A DNA stretch of 64,000 bases. It comes from the human T2T-CHM13v2.0 reference genome, Homo sapiens. The first letter of the stretch is position 1. Every line of letters begins with the position of its first letter. Positions 44,147 to 53,881 of the stretch are shown here, piece after piece. The translations under genes and the position numbers were made by a program. The DNA is taken from assembly GCF_009914755.1 (NCBI RefSeq), contig NC_060928.1. One strand, 5' to 3'. The notes beneath the pieces were generated by a model. That model was not told where the DNA came from. It saw only the letters and a program-made list of their open reading frames with translations, and searched no databases.

Positions 44147-45459
44147 CTGATAACAGGTACATGCTGTATACATTTGGTGATGGTATTGATAACTGCATTT
44201 CACAATTCCCATTTCACAGAGTCAGAAATAAACTGTTCCTTACTCAAATCATAAGAAATCATGACCAAGAAGATAATCTGTTTCTCTAGGAAAATGGCAT
44301 TTTGAATATTGGAATTCCTGCCCCTTAAATAAGAACAAAGCTTATTATTATCATAAAACTTGAACAGTCCATTAGCTCCAACTCATAATCTCCCATTCTG
44401 CAGCCCTACCCTAAAAAAATTCAGCTGATAATGATTCTCAGTGAGCACAGACATTATGAAAATACATTATTACTGAGTAAATTTCTATTGCAATTTTGTC
44501 CACAATTACCACCTTATTGAAAATCTATGATGTAGTGCTTTATGGTCTGAAGCCTGACAATTAAACTGAAACAATATTCATTGATTTTTAAGGCTCTCAA
44601 TACCCGGAACACAGGTTATTAATAATGAAAAAAGTGACTTCTTAGGCAAATGAACCAGCGATTTGGCAATGGTTTTGCTAATTTCTCTCTGAAACACATT
44701 TCCTAGAGGATTTAAAGAATGTTATTTGGTTACTAATTAGCTAATATACATAACTCTTCGATCTGGCATTAAGTGGGTCAGGATTTTAAGTGTACTTTGT
44801 AAGGCTTTAATAATTGTACCTGTGAATAGTGCTATTGAGCCATCATGGAAGGATATGAGCTTTGAATTGCTTTTCAAGGGGTAGGGTGGATTTGTAACAT
44901 AGTTGGTGTCTATATCTTTATACCTATGAAATGAAATCAGACAAAATGTTCTGGCTCTGCTGCTCAGCTCACTAGCTGGGCAAGTTGTTTAACCTGTCTA
45001 TATCTCACTTTCTTATTGGTGAAATGGGAATCTAAGCAATACCTATCTTATTTGGGCATTGTGAATGTGAAATATTCACAATGAATGGATGAAATATATT
45101 CATCCTCTCATCCATTCATTCAACCAATATTTTTGTGGTGTCCACTTGGTCAAGGATGATTTTCTGTTCATTGAAATTATGGCATTGAACAAAGAAAACA
45201 GTGATCATTGTCATGACTCATATAATAAGGAGAAAAAAATTAAAAAAGAAAATGAAGTTGCCAAGTGGTATAACTGATAGGAAGAAAAATAAAGGAAGAT
45301 AAGGGAAAAGAGAGTATATGGTGGGAGGGCAGTCAGTGGAGGCATTTCTGAGGAGGTGATATTTAGCAGAAGCATTTACGAAGATAGGGAGCAAGCCACA
45401 AAAACGTATGACGGGAAGCGTTCCAGGTTGAATGAACAGCAGTATAAAAGTTCCTTTTC

Positions 45460-45835
45460 AGACCCTGACTGAACCAGAGAAAGACCATGAACCTCTTTCC
45501 ACTGTGGATTTTCAAAGTATCTCATAAGAAAGAAATATCCGGCGGGGCGCAGTGGCTCACGCCTGTAATCCCAGCACTTTGGGAGGCCGAGGTGAGCAGA
45601 TCACGAGGTCAGGAAATCGAGACCATCCTGGCTAACACGGTGAAACCCCGTCTCTACTAAAAATACAAAAAAAAAATTAGCCGGGCGTGGTGGCGGGCGC
45701 CTGTAGTCCCAGACACTCGGGAGGGAGGCTGAGGCAGGAGAATGGCATGAACCCGGGAGGCCGAGCTTGCTGTGAGCCAAGATCGCACCACTGCACTCCA
45801 GCCTGGGCAACAGAGCAAGACACCATCTAAAAAAA
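45460..45835 (+). mobile_element. AluY with ~80-bp transduced 5' flank (daughter of the Alu at 52480-52785)
   Basis: TSD AAAAGTTC(C/T)TTTTC at 45446-45459 and 45836-45849 encloses unique segment 45460-45540 plus Alu 45541-45835. Confidence 0.9.
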
Positions 45836-47724
45836 AAAAGTTCTTTTTCTCTGAAGCACATTTTCCAAATACTACATGTTGCTTTTTGTTACTCATCATT
45901 ATTACCCATACGGCTTTTAACTCATTCACAAAAATATGGAGCCCTCAACATGTGCTGTTTGTCCACGAAAGCCCTGCTCTTCGTCTTCTTGCATGTGGGG
46001 CAAAGCTCCTCCGATATACAGGTATAAATCAGAACAGGTAAGAACAGGTGATGTTCTTAATCACTTGCTACTTGCCAGGCCCTGAGCTGAGCACTTTTAT
46101 GTCCATTATCTCATTTGAATCTACATACAAGCATATGAGAGGGCTTCTATACGATTCTCATTTCACGGCAGATGAAGCAAAGACAACAGAGAATAAGAAA
46201 CTAAACCACTATCTCATAGCTACTAGCAGAGACTGAATTTGAATTTAAGCAAGTGCAGGTGTAATATTGAATCTATTCTCAAAGTGTGTGTGTGGACGTT
46301 TGTATCCACCACTGTAGTTGTGGAGAACAGGGAATATGCAATCCAAAACCACAGGCAATCCTGATAATAATTTTTCTGTAGTAAAAATATCCACGAAGTG
46401 TAGGAGACTGTGTTTTATTGACTTATAGTCAACTCTTGATTTTTTCATAGCAGAACGTTAAAGTAAATAATTGAAACTAGCATAAAATTCAAGTCCTTTA
46501 TATTGATTTAACACTTCAGTTAATTTGTGTTACTATCATCATTATTTATTGATTTCACTAGTATAAAATTAGCTTTTTAAACATTTCAGAACACATTTAC
46601 TGACCCTTTAAGACTACGTATAATAAGAGAAAAAGACAATGTAGGACTCAGAAGTATCTTCTTGTTTTACGTATTTCACAGTGTTGAGAAGAAATTATAA
46701 AAGCTACAACTCTTTCAATTGTGAAGTAGAAAACCTTGCCACTCCATATTGGCCAAAATGATGTATTTGACTCCTGTTCTGGATATTTCTGTGATACCTT
46801 TATTTAAAGGTGCTCCAAGGATTTAGTTTATTTGCATTCTTAAAAATTATAGATTGTACTTTTAGATATTTTTGTTTGTGGCAATCATTCTTCTACTTAA
46901 TGATAATAGATAACTCTTATTAGACAAAAATCACTTGAACAATCAAAATGAGTCATACATTTGAAAGGAGAAATTACTATGGTAATTGTTAAGTAATCCA
47001 TGTTAATTCATAAATAATTATATTGCACTTTTTTGAGGGTCATAGACTGATTCAGAAGGTGATGTCAAATTGCAGTTTCAAACATATTCATTTTTGCCAT
47101 GGTCTTGTAGTTTTTAATCCCTTCTTTTCATCCATGAACATTGATGATTACTGTTCTCTTAATAAAACATAAAGTTATTTAGTGAAAAATCACCAAGTTC
47201 TTGTGCAGTTAAGTTGGAATAAATTTAATTTGCTAGTTTTTAGAAATTCCCCTTTCTACTGACAATTTATTTTCACCTTATTTAATGGAATTTGTTTTAC
47301 AGTAGTGCTTTTCATTTAGGAAGCTTGTTATATTTGCAAGTGGTTAAGACAGTAGGTCTTATGTGTTTTTTACCATCACAATTAAAAATTCGAAGTTTAA
47401 AGAAAAGAAACAATTAGAAACACATGCAACTGAGGTCAGTTCTATAAAATTAACTTTGAAATAAAAAGGGGCTCTCTCTCTCTATATATATTTTTTACAC
47501 ATACATATATATTTATGAATAGTTTATATATCTATGTATAACCAAACACACACACACATATATACATTTATATATATATATATATATTCTGTTTACAGAG
47601 ATTCTAATATGCAATTGTACAAAGGGAAATGTTTTTGAGGCTAGCATATTGTTGATGGGGCAATTGTGGTGAAATTATCAGAAAATTAATGGAAATCTGT
47701 TCTGTAATATAGAATAGACTTGAA

Positions 47725-51570: not shown

Positions 51571-52479
51571 GCATATCAGTGGAATGCAAATATCTAAAGG
51601 AAAGAACCATGACAGATCTGGTGGCCTGGGGGTTTCATTTTTCTGATATTTGGGGAGTTTAGCAGGAATTTGGCTCAGGAACACTCAGTTAGCTCAGAGA
51701 TAGATTGGGTGATGACAGCCTTGAGTGCCAGAGGCTCTCTTTCCTAATAAAGCCATCTCTTTGACTGGCTAGAGTGTTGCCATTGCTACATAATGGTACA
51801 GAGGGTCGTCCCATTTTCCTATCAATATTGATAGTACTGGGCAAGGTGGAGTGGGGTGGGGGTTGTTACTGGAATGCTGATTATGGTGTAACCTCGGCTG
51901 TCCAGCTCTGCCTAGCCTAATCTGTAGGACCAGTGTTCCAGAATTGTGTACACACTGTGACTTGGCTACTTTTAATATTTATTTAAGAAAAAATTCTAAT
52001 GCATATTAACACCAGATCTAGAGATATGTGGCCATAATACCTTTGCAGGGAACAGAACTTCAGAAGAGTTAGGATAAAATCAGCTTGTTAAATGTCTATT
52101 ATATATACACGAGTAATCTCAGTTCTTTTATGTGTTTATTTCTCCCAGTAACTGCTTTTTTGTCTTTCCCACTGCATGCTTAGGTCCTTAACAACACTTT
52201 ATTTTCTGGCTCTGCAACTGTTTTGTCACTTGGTTTACTAGAATAGCAGAATTTTAACGTTTAAGCCTCAGACTTATTCCTTTCTAACTTTGGTTTCACG
52301 TTTAATTCAAAAATGATCTCACTCCTTTCCCCAGAGCAGACCACCAAAGTATGTACAGCTGCTTAAAGTAGGGGAAGGCAGGTGTGGTCAGACCCCAAAG
52401 TCTTGGCTCCTTCTTCATTTTCTAGGCTTAGGAGCCTTTGAGGTTAAGGATAGAGATGAGAAGTGGGAGATTTCTTTCT

Positions 52480-52785
52480 ATTTAGGTATTTATTTATTTA
52501 GAGACGGAGTCTTGCTCTGTCACCCAGGCTGGAGTGCAGTGGTGCGATCTCGGCTCACTGCAAGCTCCGCCTCCCGGGTTCACGCCATTCTCCTGCCTCA
52601 GCCTCCCGAGTAGCTGGGACTACAGGCGCCCGCCACCACGCCCGGCTAATTTTGTTTTTGTATTTCTAGTAGAGACTGGGTTTCACCGTGTTAGCCAGGA
52701 TGATCTCGATCTCCTGACCTCGTGATCTGCCCGCCTCGGCCTCCCAAAGTGCTGGGGTTACAGGCGTGAGCCACGGCGCCCCGCT
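52480..52785 (-). mobile_element. AluY (source copy) with own TSD
   Basis: TSD GGA(G/T)ATTTCTTTCT at 52466-52479 and 52786-52799; (TAAA)n tail. Confidence 0.95.
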
Positions 52786-53881
52786 GGATATTTCTTTCTT
52801 ATGTGATACACAGTTGCAAAGAGGTTCATAGTCTTTCTCTGGTTCAGTCAGCGTCTGTGTAATGTCAGTGGCTCTGATTATGCTGTAGTCTTTGCGAATT
52901 GGTGTGCCTGAGTTTCTTGAATTAAGAATCAATTTTGTCTTTGCCTTTTCTAGCTTGAGAACACCACTTCCCAAGGAGGGTTTCCATGTATCCCTTTGTT
53001 CTCTTCAGGTATGGATGCCTCATCCTTTCTCCAGGACAGGCTTAGCAATCACCCGGCTTTGTAGTTGCCTGTGGAGATGTGCTGCTCCTGTCCCACCTCC
53101 ATCCTCTGCGTTCCTCGTGAGAAAGCCACAAGAATGGCAGACCATCTTTTCATATGACCTGAGGTGGCTGGAAACTGGAATGCCATGGAGCTCTTCAAGG
53201 AGGGATTAGCGGGGACCAGAGAGATTGTGTTACCTGCCTTCAGGAATCTCTAGACTGGAAGGTGGCACTGGGTTCCATGCTCATTTGTGCCCCTAAAATT
53301 CAGAGATCACTTGTTAAGCATCCCACTCTTCTTCACTCACATGTGGGATGGGTACAGAAAGCAACAAACCAGCACTCTCTTAGGCTCCTACAATGCTCTC
53401 CCATGAACTCTGTGGGAGCTCATGGGAATGCATAAGAACTGCATTCTTATGGTGGCAATTGGGTAGATCTATAAGTTCTGCCTATCAGTATCCTCCATCA
53501 GAAGAATGAGATAGCACTCTTTCACTCGGAGGATGATCTTTTGAAATCTCTCTCACTTCTCTTGAAGAAGGGGAAAGCACCTTCCCTCCCTCCCCCATGA
53601 GGAAGTGGGAGAATAACCTCGCACAATATTGCATACTTCATCTACAGGCTGACAACCACCTAGCTTCTCACTCCTCTTTATTGACTTGGTGAGGGTGGGA
53701 TGTCAATGGGTTGTAGAGAGTTCTGGCTCCCGTATGGCACTGACTGGCTCTAAATGCAACCTGTTTTGTGATACCTCTCTGAAGTTCAGCTACCTTGCCT
53801 TTAGACGTGATCTCCAGGAAAATGTAACAAAATTTTTTCTCTCTCTCTCATCAAGTGGTTGGGCTTCCCCTCAACTCTCAC

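What the first reader, a model, noticed from the sequence alone, without database searches (positions are those of the whole stretch)
45446..52857. Alu 5'-transduction with source and daughter only 6.6 kb apart
Seen: 45459-45540 (CAGACCCTGACTGAACCAGAGAAAGACCATGAACCTCTTT...CATAAGAAAGAAATATCC) matches the reverse complement of 52786-52857, the unique 5' flank of the AluY at 52480-52785, apart from an 11-nt indel and a few substitutions. Both Alus share non-consensus marks (GCGGGGCGC start, 10-nt middle A tract). The 52.5-kb Alu has its own TSD, whose 5' copy sits inside the 45.5-kb insert; the 45.5-kb insert has a separate TSD AAAAGTTC(C/T)TTTTC outside the flank. This gives direction 52.5 kb to 45.5 kb. 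Established: Alu Pol III transcripts start at the Alu's first base and do not carry 5' flank. Inference: a minus-strand read-through RNA was primed at the Alu A-tail by L1 ORF2p and reinserted locally, possibly while nascent; its strand matches the candidate gene.
Basis: partly seen in the sequence, partly recalled or inferred. Interest (0 to 1): 0.85.

Follow-up and report, generated by a model that had tools for sequence, protein, structure and literature searches.

The report
Alu copied with its upstream flank nearby
An old Alu repeat was copied, together with about 70 bases of the unique DNA in front of it, to a site only 6.6 kb away in the opposite orientation; it looks like a LINE-1-driven retrocopy of a read-through RNA, a form barely described for Alu, but a DNA-level copying accident cannot be excluded.

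Summary
The insert at 45460-45835 (+) holds an 81-nt non-repeat stretch, an Alu and an A-run. It is bracketed by a 14-bp direct repeat, AAAAGTTC(C/T)TTTTC. The 81 nt match the 71 nt directly upstream of the minus-strand Alu at 52501-52785 (66 of 70 aligned bases, two gaps). They include that Alu's own 5' target-site duplication (TSD).

In the whole T2T genome the flank and the flank/Alu junction occur only at these two places. The two Alus share rare marks. No homology extends beyond the insert. So the direction is 52.5 kb to 45.5 kb, in one step. Non-CpG divergence is 4.9%, which suggests roughly 10-40 Myr ago.

Best reading (about 0.57): LINE-1 ORF2p target-primed reverse transcription of a minus-strand RNA carrying 5' flank plus Alu, at a TTTT/AT site.

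A random landing within 7.4 kb of the source has p about 5e-6. Either the RNA was used locally, or the copy was made at DNA level. A replicative template switch, or one-ended repair into an existing Alu, together rate about 0.35.

Alu 5' transductions are absent from the catalogues I read. Moderately interesting; the mechanism is unresolved.

The parts
45446..45459 (+). 5' target-site duplication of the daughter insert (AAAAGTTCCTTTTC). The T at 45445 gives a bottom-strand nick site 5'-TTTT/AT.
   Evidence: only two 14-mers within 1 mismatch in the window.
45460..45540 (+). 81-nt copy of the unique DNA that lies directly 5' of the source Alu. Its last 14 nt (45527-45540) are a copy of the source Alu's 5' TSD. 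It carries 11 nt (about 45509-45519, placement ambiguous by 1-2 nt) that the source locus lacks.
   Evidence: 66 of 70 identical, 2 gaps; two copies genome-wide; the 11-nt extra has no second copy in the window.
45541..45828 (+). Daughter Alu body, full length and dimeric. It starts GGCGGGGCGC, has an A10 linker, and has a private 4-nt GGGA insertion.
   Evidence: (sub-threshold SRP-RNA hits on both arms).
45829..45835 (+). A-run of the daughter. The run is 11 A in all, of which the last 4 can belong to the 3' TSD.
45836..45849 (+). 3' target-site duplication of the daughter insert (AAAAGTTCTTTTTC; 13 of 14 identical to the 5' copy).
52786..52857 (-). Source 5' flank: 71 nt plus an ambiguous C at 52857. 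52786-52799 is the source Alu's 5' TSD, AGAAAGAAATATCC.
52501..52785 (-). Source Alu body. It starts AGCGGGGCGC and has an A5CA4 linker.
52480..52500 (-). Decayed A-rich tail of the source Alu (TAAATAAATAAATACCTAAAT).
52466..52479 (-). 3' TSD of the source Alu (AGAAAGAAATCTCC). It is absent from the daughter.

Best explanation
The 45.5-kb element is a one-step secondary copy of the 52.5-kb Alu together with the 71-72 nt directly upstream of it. It was made roughly 10-40 million years ago.

Most likely mechanism:
1. A minus-strand RNA covered the flank and the Alu. It either started upstream of the Alu or read through it. It is unlikely to have been the normal Pol III Alu transcript, which starts at the Alu's first base.
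2. LINE-1 ORF2p nicked the bottom strand at 5'-TTTT/AT, at 45445/45446.
3. The T-run primed on the Alu's A-tail.
4. Reverse transcription ran through the Alu and 71-72 nt further. That point was either the RNA's 5' end or a 5' truncation.
5. The cDNA was joined with a 1-nt overlap, and a 14-bp target-site duplication was formed.

Shown: structure, direction, uniqueness of the flank, and the hallmarks of the insertion.
Inferred: the RNA intermediate, the polymerase, and why the copy landed 6.6 kb from its source.
For: Nested TSDs. The daughter carries the source's 5' TSD inside its insert and its own 14-bp TSD outside the flank.

Insertion hallmarks. The A-run abuts the 3' TSD, and the sequence at 45445/45446 gives a TTTT/AT nick site. 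This is read; the LINE-1 endonuclease consensus TTTT/AA is recalled.

Uniqueness. The flank and the junction have exactly two genomic copies.

Boundaries. There is no homology outside the insert: the best outside hit is 23 nt at E 0.007.

Shared rare marks. Position 4 G is found in 2 of 98 other Alus. A 10-nt linker is found in 0 of 61 readable others. Only 8 Alus genome-wide carry both marks exactly, including these two, and the other six lack the shared A in GGGCAGATCAC.

Single event. Differences are spread evenly over flank, left arm and right arm.

Not a small-RNA chimera. No RNA family matches the flank.

Precedents.
- Nuclear intron-derived RNA fragments were retroposed with about 14-bp TSDs and A-rich tails: snoRNA retroposons, PMC1687206 (passages read).
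- 5' transduction by upstream initiation is described for L1 and SVA in PMC4859970 (passages read).

Weak hint. The daughter's private changes are 7 G-to-A against 1 C-to-T on the sense strand. Summed over the 98 other Alus the counts are 1155 against 1129. One-sided p is about 0.04. This would fit deamination of a minus-strand single-stranded intermediate.
Against: - A randomly placed retro-insertion falls within 7.4 kb of its source with p about 4.7e-6 (arithmetic). This reading therefore needs either an unproven local use of the RNA or a very lucky event.
- No other daughter with at least 17 nt of this flank exists in the genome.
- There is no RNA-specific mark: no splice, no untemplated bases, no editing-type A-to-G.
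- No transcription evidence was available, and no gene is annotated in the window.
- The A-run is only 11 nt.
- Both junctions can also be read as microhomology junctions of a DNA template switch.
- The G-to-A excess is small, was found after several looks, and would also fit single-stranded DNA in a replicative event.
Confidence: 0.57

Rival explanations
1. DNA-level replicative template switch (an MMBIR/FoSTeS-type short inverted duplication).
1. A nascent strand at the 45.5-kb site left its template after ...CCTTTTC.
2. It annealed by a 1-nt C overlap 72 nt upstream of the 52.5-kb Alu on the opposite strand.
3. It copied the flank, the Alu and part of the A-tail.
4. It returned by A-run microhomology to the AAAA 14 nt behind its point of departure. 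That duplicated 14 bp and mimicked a retro-insertion.
For: - The copy is local (6,616 nt between the two loci) and inverted.
- A 1-nt overlap at the 5' junction and an A-run overlap of at least 4 nt at the 3' junction are read.
- Base rate from PMC12350158 (passages read): 311 polymorphic inverted duplications against 23,212 Alu insertions in 1,019 people. Of those, 277 were analysed in detail. Median length was 284 bp, mostly with 1-15 bp microhomology, and a replicative origin was proposed.
- No other daughters exist.
Against: - It needs three coincidences at once: the copy ends in an Alu A-tail in the right orientation; the back-jump is 14 nt, the typical LINE-1 TSD length; and the site reads TTTT/AT.
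- There is no extra junction complexity. The 11-nt extra in the flank is not templated anywhere in the window.
- The source-to-copy distances of the published inverted duplications were not given in the passages I read. Many may be adjacent to their template.
Confidence: 0.25
2. Two-step origin.
1. An independent Alu of the same type had already inserted at 45.5 kb, giving the 14-bp TSD and the A-run.
2. Later a break at its 5' junction was repaired by one-ended invasion of the inverted 52.5-kb Alu.
4. The end was then joined non-homologously to the intact TSD.
5. Heteroduplex correction transferred the 5'-half marks.
For: - Alu-Alu gene conversion is reported to act within about 10 kb and to fall off with distance. 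This is in PMC8230782 (passage read), citing Aleshin and Zhi 2010, which I did not read.
- Both rare shared marks (position 4 and the linker near position 130) lie in the 5' half. The 3' half shares only common CpG transitions.
Against: - The break and rejoining must fall exactly at the TSD/Alu boundary. No Alu 5' remnant is left and no TSD base is lost.
- The conversion tract must reach at least 132 nt.
- A-versus-B differences are no denser in the 3' half: among the Alu substitutions, 10 lie in the first 132 nt and 10 in the last 150 nt.
- No subfamily mosaic is visible. Both copies read GAGCTTGC and GGC(G/A)TG in the right arm; that these are diagnostic is recalled.
Confidence: 0.1
3. The shared flank belongs to a dispersed repeat or to a larger segmental or inverted duplication. 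Alternatively, both copies descend from a third locus.
For: None found.
Against: - Exactly two genomic places match either flank and the junction.
- Homology stops at the insert boundaries.
- The flank is outside the repeat-masked intervals listed with the finding.
- The source copy has its own TSD directly around the Alu.
- Caveat: the tool states that its counts are lower bounds for repeats.
Confidence: 0.02

Closest known systems
5' transduction by SVA and (rarely) LINE-1 elements
   Same: The daughter carries unique DNA that is contiguous with the 5' end of the source element. Its own TSD lies outside the carried segment. It has a poly(A) end and a LINE-1-type target site. The accepted cause is transcription from upstream of the element (PMC4859970, passages; bioRxiv 10.1101/2021.07.12.451456, passages).
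   Different: - Here the element is an Alu, normally a Pol III transcript that starts at its own first base.
[quoted passage not shown]
- The 1,019-genome study analyses transductions for L1 and SVA only.
- The offspring lies 6.6 kb from its source, whereas the CHM13 catalogue describes SVA transductions as mostly interchromosomal.
Alu 3' transductions (386 annotated in CHM13; none confirmed among 118,489 full-length AluY on re-analysis)
   Same: Flanking non-Alu DNA is co-mobilised with an Alu (bioRxiv 10.1101/2024.04.29.591526, part 1 of the text and passages).
   Different: - Those events lie on the 3' side and depend on Pol III terminator read-through.
- The re-analysis screened only for extra sequence between the Alu end and the poly(A).
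- It states that rare events by Pol II co-transcription cannot be excluded.
- The present case is on the 5' side.
Retroposed fragments of unspliced nuclear Pol II transcripts (Type-2 snoRNA retroposons)
   Same: A structured small RNA plus adjacent intronic sequence of its parental locus is inserted with an A-rich tail and a TSD of about 14 bp (PMC1687206, abstract and passages).
   Different: There the extra sequence lies downstream of the snoRNA, and the 5' end is the mature snoRNA end. Here the extra sequence lies upstream, and priming is on the embedded Alu's A-tail.
Short inverted duplications of replicative origin
   Same: Size of a few hundred bp, inverted orientation, local template, and junction microhomology of 1-15 bp (PMC12350158, passages).
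   Different: Such events are not expected to end in a poly(A) tract, to sit at a TTTT/A site, or to make a 14-bp TSD.
Template-switch chimeric retrogenes (U6-L1 type; recalled, not read here)
   Same: A two-part insert within one TSD and one poly(A).
   Different: In those, the 5' part comes from a different RNA, often a small nuclear RNA. Here the two parts are contiguous at the source locus, and the flank matches no RNA family.

Membership tests
LINE-1 (ORF2p) target-primed retro-insertion | Direct repeat (TSD) of about 7-20 bp flanking the whole insert | tested here: met
   The 14-bp repeat is 13 of 14 identical. These are the only two such 14-mers (up to 1 mismatch) in 63,986 window positions.
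LINE-1 (ORF2p) target-primed retro-insertion | Poly(A) at the 3' end, abutting the 3' TSD | tested here: met
   A run of 11 A at 45829-45839, overlapping the TSD's AAAA.
LINE-1 (ORF2p) target-primed retro-insertion | Bottom-strand nick site resembling 5'-TTTT/AA | tested here: met
   The site reads TTTT/AT, from 45445-45449. The consensus itself is recalled.
LINE-1 (ORF2p) target-primed retro-insertion | Empty pre-integration site with one TSD copy in an outgroup | not testable with these tools
   No primate genomes are held.
LINE-1 (ORF2p) target-primed retro-insertion | Evidence of an RNA intermediate | tested here: inconclusive
   There is no intron to lose and no untemplated bases. The only hint is a weak sense-strand excess in the daughter's private changes: 7 G-to-A against 1 C-to-T, one-sided p about 0.04.
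5' transduction | The carried segment is contiguous with the element's 5' end at a unique source locus | tested here: met
5' transduction | The source's own 5' TSD is inside the daughter, and the daughter's TSD is outside the carried segment | tested here: met
5' transduction | Transcript initiated at an upstream promoter | not testable with these tools
   No expression or transcription-start data were available. A 5'-truncated cDNA of a longer RNA is equally possible.
Alu (7SL-derived dimeric SINE), young Y/Sc-like type | Dimeric 7SL-related body with an A-rich linker and an A-tail | tested here: met
   Both arms give SRP-RNA hits below the gathering score: 37-65.7 bits against a threshold of 70. 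The bodies are 80-92% identical to other window Alus.
Alu (7SL-derived dimeric SINE), young Y/Sc-like type | Subfamily-diagnostic positions | not tested
No repeat library was available. The nearest of 98 sampled Alus are 89-92% identical.
Replicative inverted duplication (MMBIR/FoSTeS) | Inverted copy close to its template, with 1-15 bp junction microhomology | tested here: met
   The loci are 6,616 nt apart and inverted. There is a 1-nt overlap and an A-run overlap of at least 4 nt.
Replicative inverted duplication (MMBIR/FoSTeS) | Breakpoints unrelated to retroelement ends or to LINE-1 target motifs | tested here: not met
   The breakpoints coincide with an Alu A-tail, a TTTT/AT site and a 14-bp TSD.
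Alu-Alu gene conversion or one-ended repair | Mosaic recipient: a converted tract beside an unconverted remainder | tested here: inconclusive
   Differences are evenly spread. The rare shared marks lie only in the 5' half. The numbers are too small to decide.
Template-switch chimeric retrogene | The 5' part derives from a different cellular RNA | tested here: not met
   The flank is contiguous with the Alu at the source and matches no Rfam family.

The most novel reading that the evidence does not exclude
LINE-1 ORF2p used a chromatin-tethered, still-nascent minus-strand read-through RNA as template. A nick 6.6 kb away captured the A-tail of the embedded Alu. The result was a local, inverted retrocopy carrying 5' flank. 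This would be evidence that target-primed reverse transcription can act in cis on nascent nuclear RNA. It would also mean that some 'local duplications' in primate genomes are in fact retrocopies.
Probability: 0.2. Interest if true: 0.75.

Novelty: new variant of a known kind. Interest (0 to 1): 0.45.

Why it matters
Alu is the most numerous human mobile element. The catalogues I could read list its transductions only on the 3' side, and those are disputed. A clean, nested-TSD case of an Alu copied with its 5' flank shows that Alus embedded in longer transcripts, or their DNA, can be duplicated with neighbouring sequence.

The very short source-to-copy distance is the unusual part. If it reflects local use of nascent RNA by the LINE-1 machinery, it bears on where and on which templates reverse transcription happens in the nucleus. 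If it reflects DNA template switching, it shows that such events can closely mimic retrotransposition hallmarks. That matters for automated classification of insertions.

No functional consequence for the locus is evident.

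Tried and rejected
Checks that closed off alternatives:
- Dispersed-repeat or third-copy origin of the flank is rejected. There are two places only.
- A larger inverted duplication is rejected. There is no homology beyond the insert.
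- A small-RNA chimera is rejected. There is no Rfam hit in the flank.
- A templated origin of the 11-nt extra in the daughter flank was not found in the window.
- A lineage of Alus sharing both rare marks is not supported. 8 exact matches genome-wide include these two. The other six lack the third shared mark.
- An A-to-I editing signature in the daughter was not seen. None of its polarised private changes is A-to-G.

Limits of the Alu sample:
- A wider Alu sample was not possible.
- The polarisation therefore rests on 98 full-length Alus from the window plus 25 ten-kb stretches of chromosome 19.
- The 'near' reference set is only 18 copies.
- The multiple alignment split the shared 4-nt linker expansion into different columns for the two copies. 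I corrected this by hand using the direct linker read-out.

Tool problems:
- One genome pattern search returned no answer.

Literature searches for a described Alu 5' transduction found none. The search tool cannot take the prime sign in 5'-transduction, as searches showed. Subscription journals are not covered. Supplements of PMC6191304, which counts Alu 'transductions' on either side, were not opened. So this is not proof that none is in print.

Full report
**What is there**

On the + strand the daughter locus reads, in order:
- AAAAGTTCCTTTTC at 45446-45459;
- 81 nt of non-repeat sequence at 45460-45540;
- a full-length dimeric Alu at 45541-45828;
- an 11-A run;
- GTTCTTTTTC, so that AAAAGTTCTTTTTC lies at 45836-45849.

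On the minus strand the source locus reads, in order:
- 71 nt at 52856-52786 that align to the 81 nt, with 66 matches, 4 mismatches, one 1-nt gap and one 11-nt gap;
- an Alu at 52785-52501;
- a decayed A-rich tail at 52500-52480;
- AGAAAGAAATCTCC at 52479-52466.

That last motif repeats AGAAAGAAATATCC at 52799-52786. So the source Alu has its own TSD directly around it. The 5' copy of that TSD is also found inside the daughter insert at 45527-45540. The 3' copy is not in the daughter.

In the window, each 14-mer has only its partner within one mismatch.

**More than chance, and not a repeat**

- A 21-nt flank motif occurs twice in the window, against 0 expected in 100 shuffles.
- Searching the whole assembly (3.1 Gb, the window's own genome) with the source flank finds exactly these two places.
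- Searching it with the daughter flank finds the same two places.
- A 27-nt pattern across the flank/Alu junction with up to 2 mismatches finds the same two places, and none with the reversed control pattern.
- The tool warns that its counts are lower bounds for very common words. The flank is not masked as repeat in the annotation supplied with the finding.
- A sensitive comparison of 1 kb on either side of the daughter insert with 2.5 kb around the source finds nothing better than 23 nt at E 0.007. The homology therefore ends at the insert boundaries.
- Rfam finds only Alu-derived matches in 44500-54500 and nothing in the flank.

**Direction and relatedness**

The nested TSDs give the direction 52.5 kb to 45.5 kb.

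I also compared the two Alu bodies with 98 other full-length Alus. These came from the window plus 25 ten-kb stretches of chromosome 19.
- The two bodies are 262 of 282 identical. That is only slightly closer than the best unrelated copy: 92.0% against 91.8%. Body identity alone would not have shown the relationship.
- They share G at position 4, which 2 of 98 others have.
- They share a 10-nt linker. 0 of the 61 others where the motif was readable have it; 37 were not readable.
- Genome-wide only 8 Alus carry both marks exactly, these two included. The six others lack a third shared state, the A in GGGCAGATCAC.

Polarised against the nearest 18 copies:
- the daughter has about 13 private substitutions and a 4-nt insertion;
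- the source has about 8 private substitutions;
- 3 further shared states are common CpG transitions (with hand correction of the linker columns).

**Age**

Non-CpG divergence over flank plus Alu is 15 of 308 sites (4.9%; Poisson 95% interval 2.7-8.0%). With recalled neutral rates of 1.0-1.5e-9 per site per year, this gives about 17-25 Myr, with an interval of about 9-40 Myr. Each TSD pair has one mismatch in 14. The event is old and certainly fixed. It is not a recent or polymorphic insertion.

**Mechanism: leading reading**

Every sequence hallmark of LINE-1-mediated target-primed reverse transcription is present:
- a 14-bp TSD;
- an A-run abutting the 3' TSD;
- a bottom-strand site TTTT/AT;
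- a 1-nt overlap at the 5' junction.

The template would be a minus-strand RNA containing at least 71-72 nt of upstream flank plus the Alu, primed on the Alu's A-tail. Priming on the A-tail is as in ordinary Alu retrotransposition. Nothing beyond the tail was copied.

From established knowledge, Pol III starts Alu transcripts at the first Alu base. The RNA was therefore probably not the standard Alu transcript. It was either started upstream or was a longer read-through RNA whose cDNA was 5'-truncated.

Precedents:
- upstream-initiated 5' transductions of SVA and L1 (PMC4859970, passages);
- retroposed fragments of unspliced intronic RNA with TSDs of about 14 bp (PMC1687206, passages).

**What does not fit easily**

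A retro-insertion placed at random falls within 7.4 kb of its source with probability about 4.7e-6.

There is an ascertainment effect: a reader of single windows can only see pairs that lie inside one window. Even allowing for that, a chance local pair is improbable unless flank-carrying Alu retrocopies number many thousands.

So either the RNA was used near its site of synthesis, which is an unproven idea, or the copy was made at DNA level. Two DNA-level models reproduce the structure.

(a) A replicative template switch. The strand leaves after ...TTTTC with a 1-nt overlap. It copies flank, Alu and part of the tail from the opposite strand 6.6 kb away. It returns by A-run microhomology 14 nt behind its departure.
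- Short inverted duplications with microhomology junctions are a real, fairly common class. PMC12350158 (passages) reports 311 against 23,212 Alu insertions in 1,019 people, with a median of 284 bp.
- Against this, the model needs the A-tail end, the 14-nt back-jump and the TTTT/AT site to coincide.

(b) A pre-existing independent Alu at 45.5 kb. A 5'-junction break was repaired by one-ended invasion of the 52.5-kb Alu, with run-off synthesis into the flank and end joining.
- Alu-Alu conversion is reported to act within about 10 kb (PMC8230782, passage).
- Both rare shared marks lie in the 5' half.
- Against this, the rejoining must fall exactly at the TSD boundary.
- Differences between the copies are not denser in the 3' half.

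I rate retrotransposition about 0.57, the template switch about 0.25, and the two-step repair about 0.10.

**A weak extra hint**

The daughter's private transitions are 7 G-to-A against 1 C-to-T on the sense strand. The 98 other Alus are symmetric, 1155 against 1129. One-sided p is about 0.04. This would fit cytidine deamination of a single-stranded minus-strand intermediate. It is a small number found after several looks, and single-stranded DNA in a replicative event could show the same. It does not decide between the models.

**Comparison with the literature I could read**

- The CHM13 repeat paper (preprint, passages) annotated 183 L1 3', 76 SVA 5', 55 SVA 3' and 386 Alu 3' transductions. 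It has no Alu 5' class.
- A later preprint (part 1 of the text and passages) could confirm no 3' transduction among 118,489 full-length AluY. It explicitly leaves open rare events by Pol II co-transcription.
- A review describes 5' transduction for L1 and SVA only.
- The 1,019-genome study analyses transductions for L1 and SVA only.
- One comparative study counts extra sequence between an Alu and either TSD as 'transduction' without a 5'/3' split in its main text (PMC6191304, passages). I did not open its supplements.
- Seven full-text searches found no described Alu 5' transduction. The tool cannot search the prime sign, and it does not cover subscription journals.

**Verdict**

The direction and the one-step copy are well supported. 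The RNA route is the best but unproven explanation.

This is a new variant of a known kind, an Alu counterpart of 5' transduction. It has one unusual feature, its closeness to the source, and that feature is also the main argument for the rival models. Interest is moderate.

Noticed in passing
window 45541-45828 compared with 52501-52785: The daughter Alu's private changes are strand-asymmetric: 7 G-to-A against 1 C-to-T on the sense strand. The 98 other Alus are symmetric (1155 against 1129). One-sided p is about 0.04. This is possibly deamination of a single-stranded intermediate, or possibly chance.
   Followed up: partly
window 52480-52500 (minus strand): The source Alu's A-tail has decayed into TAAATAAATAAATACCTAAAT, which contains AATAAA hexamers. 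The daughter has a pure A-run. So the T interruptions either arose after the copy or lay beyond the priming point.
   Followed up: no
window 53509-53658: The RefSeq-annotated enhancer lies about 650-800 nt upstream, in minus-strand sense, of the first copied base at 52856/52857. Whether it ever drove minus-strand transcription through the source Alu is unknown.
   Followed up: no
window 45509-45519: An 11-nt stretch is present in the daughter's flank copy and absent from the source locus. It has no second copy in the window. Without an outgroup it cannot be called a deletion at the source or an insertion in the daughter.
   Followed up: partly
G000:C9:38945235-38945374 and G000:C9:79207871-79208010: Two chromosome-9 Alus that share the position-4 G and the 10-nt linker are identical over the 80 nt shown. 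They are probably part of a duplicated segment and are unrelated to this finding.
   Followed up: no
window 45678-45733 (+), 52597-52648 (-), 45750-45809 (-), 52521-52580 (+): Sub-threshold Rfam matches to the Alu-derived miRNA families mir-1268 and mir-3135 lie inside both Alu copies. These are expected Alu cross-matches, not genes.
   Followed up: no
window 45446-52857: The two copies form an inverted repeat of about 370 bp at about 93% identity, separated by 6.6 kb. Other Alus lie between them at 48192-48531 and 49583-49895. This could pair in RNA if co-transcribed. It was not examined.
   Followed up: no
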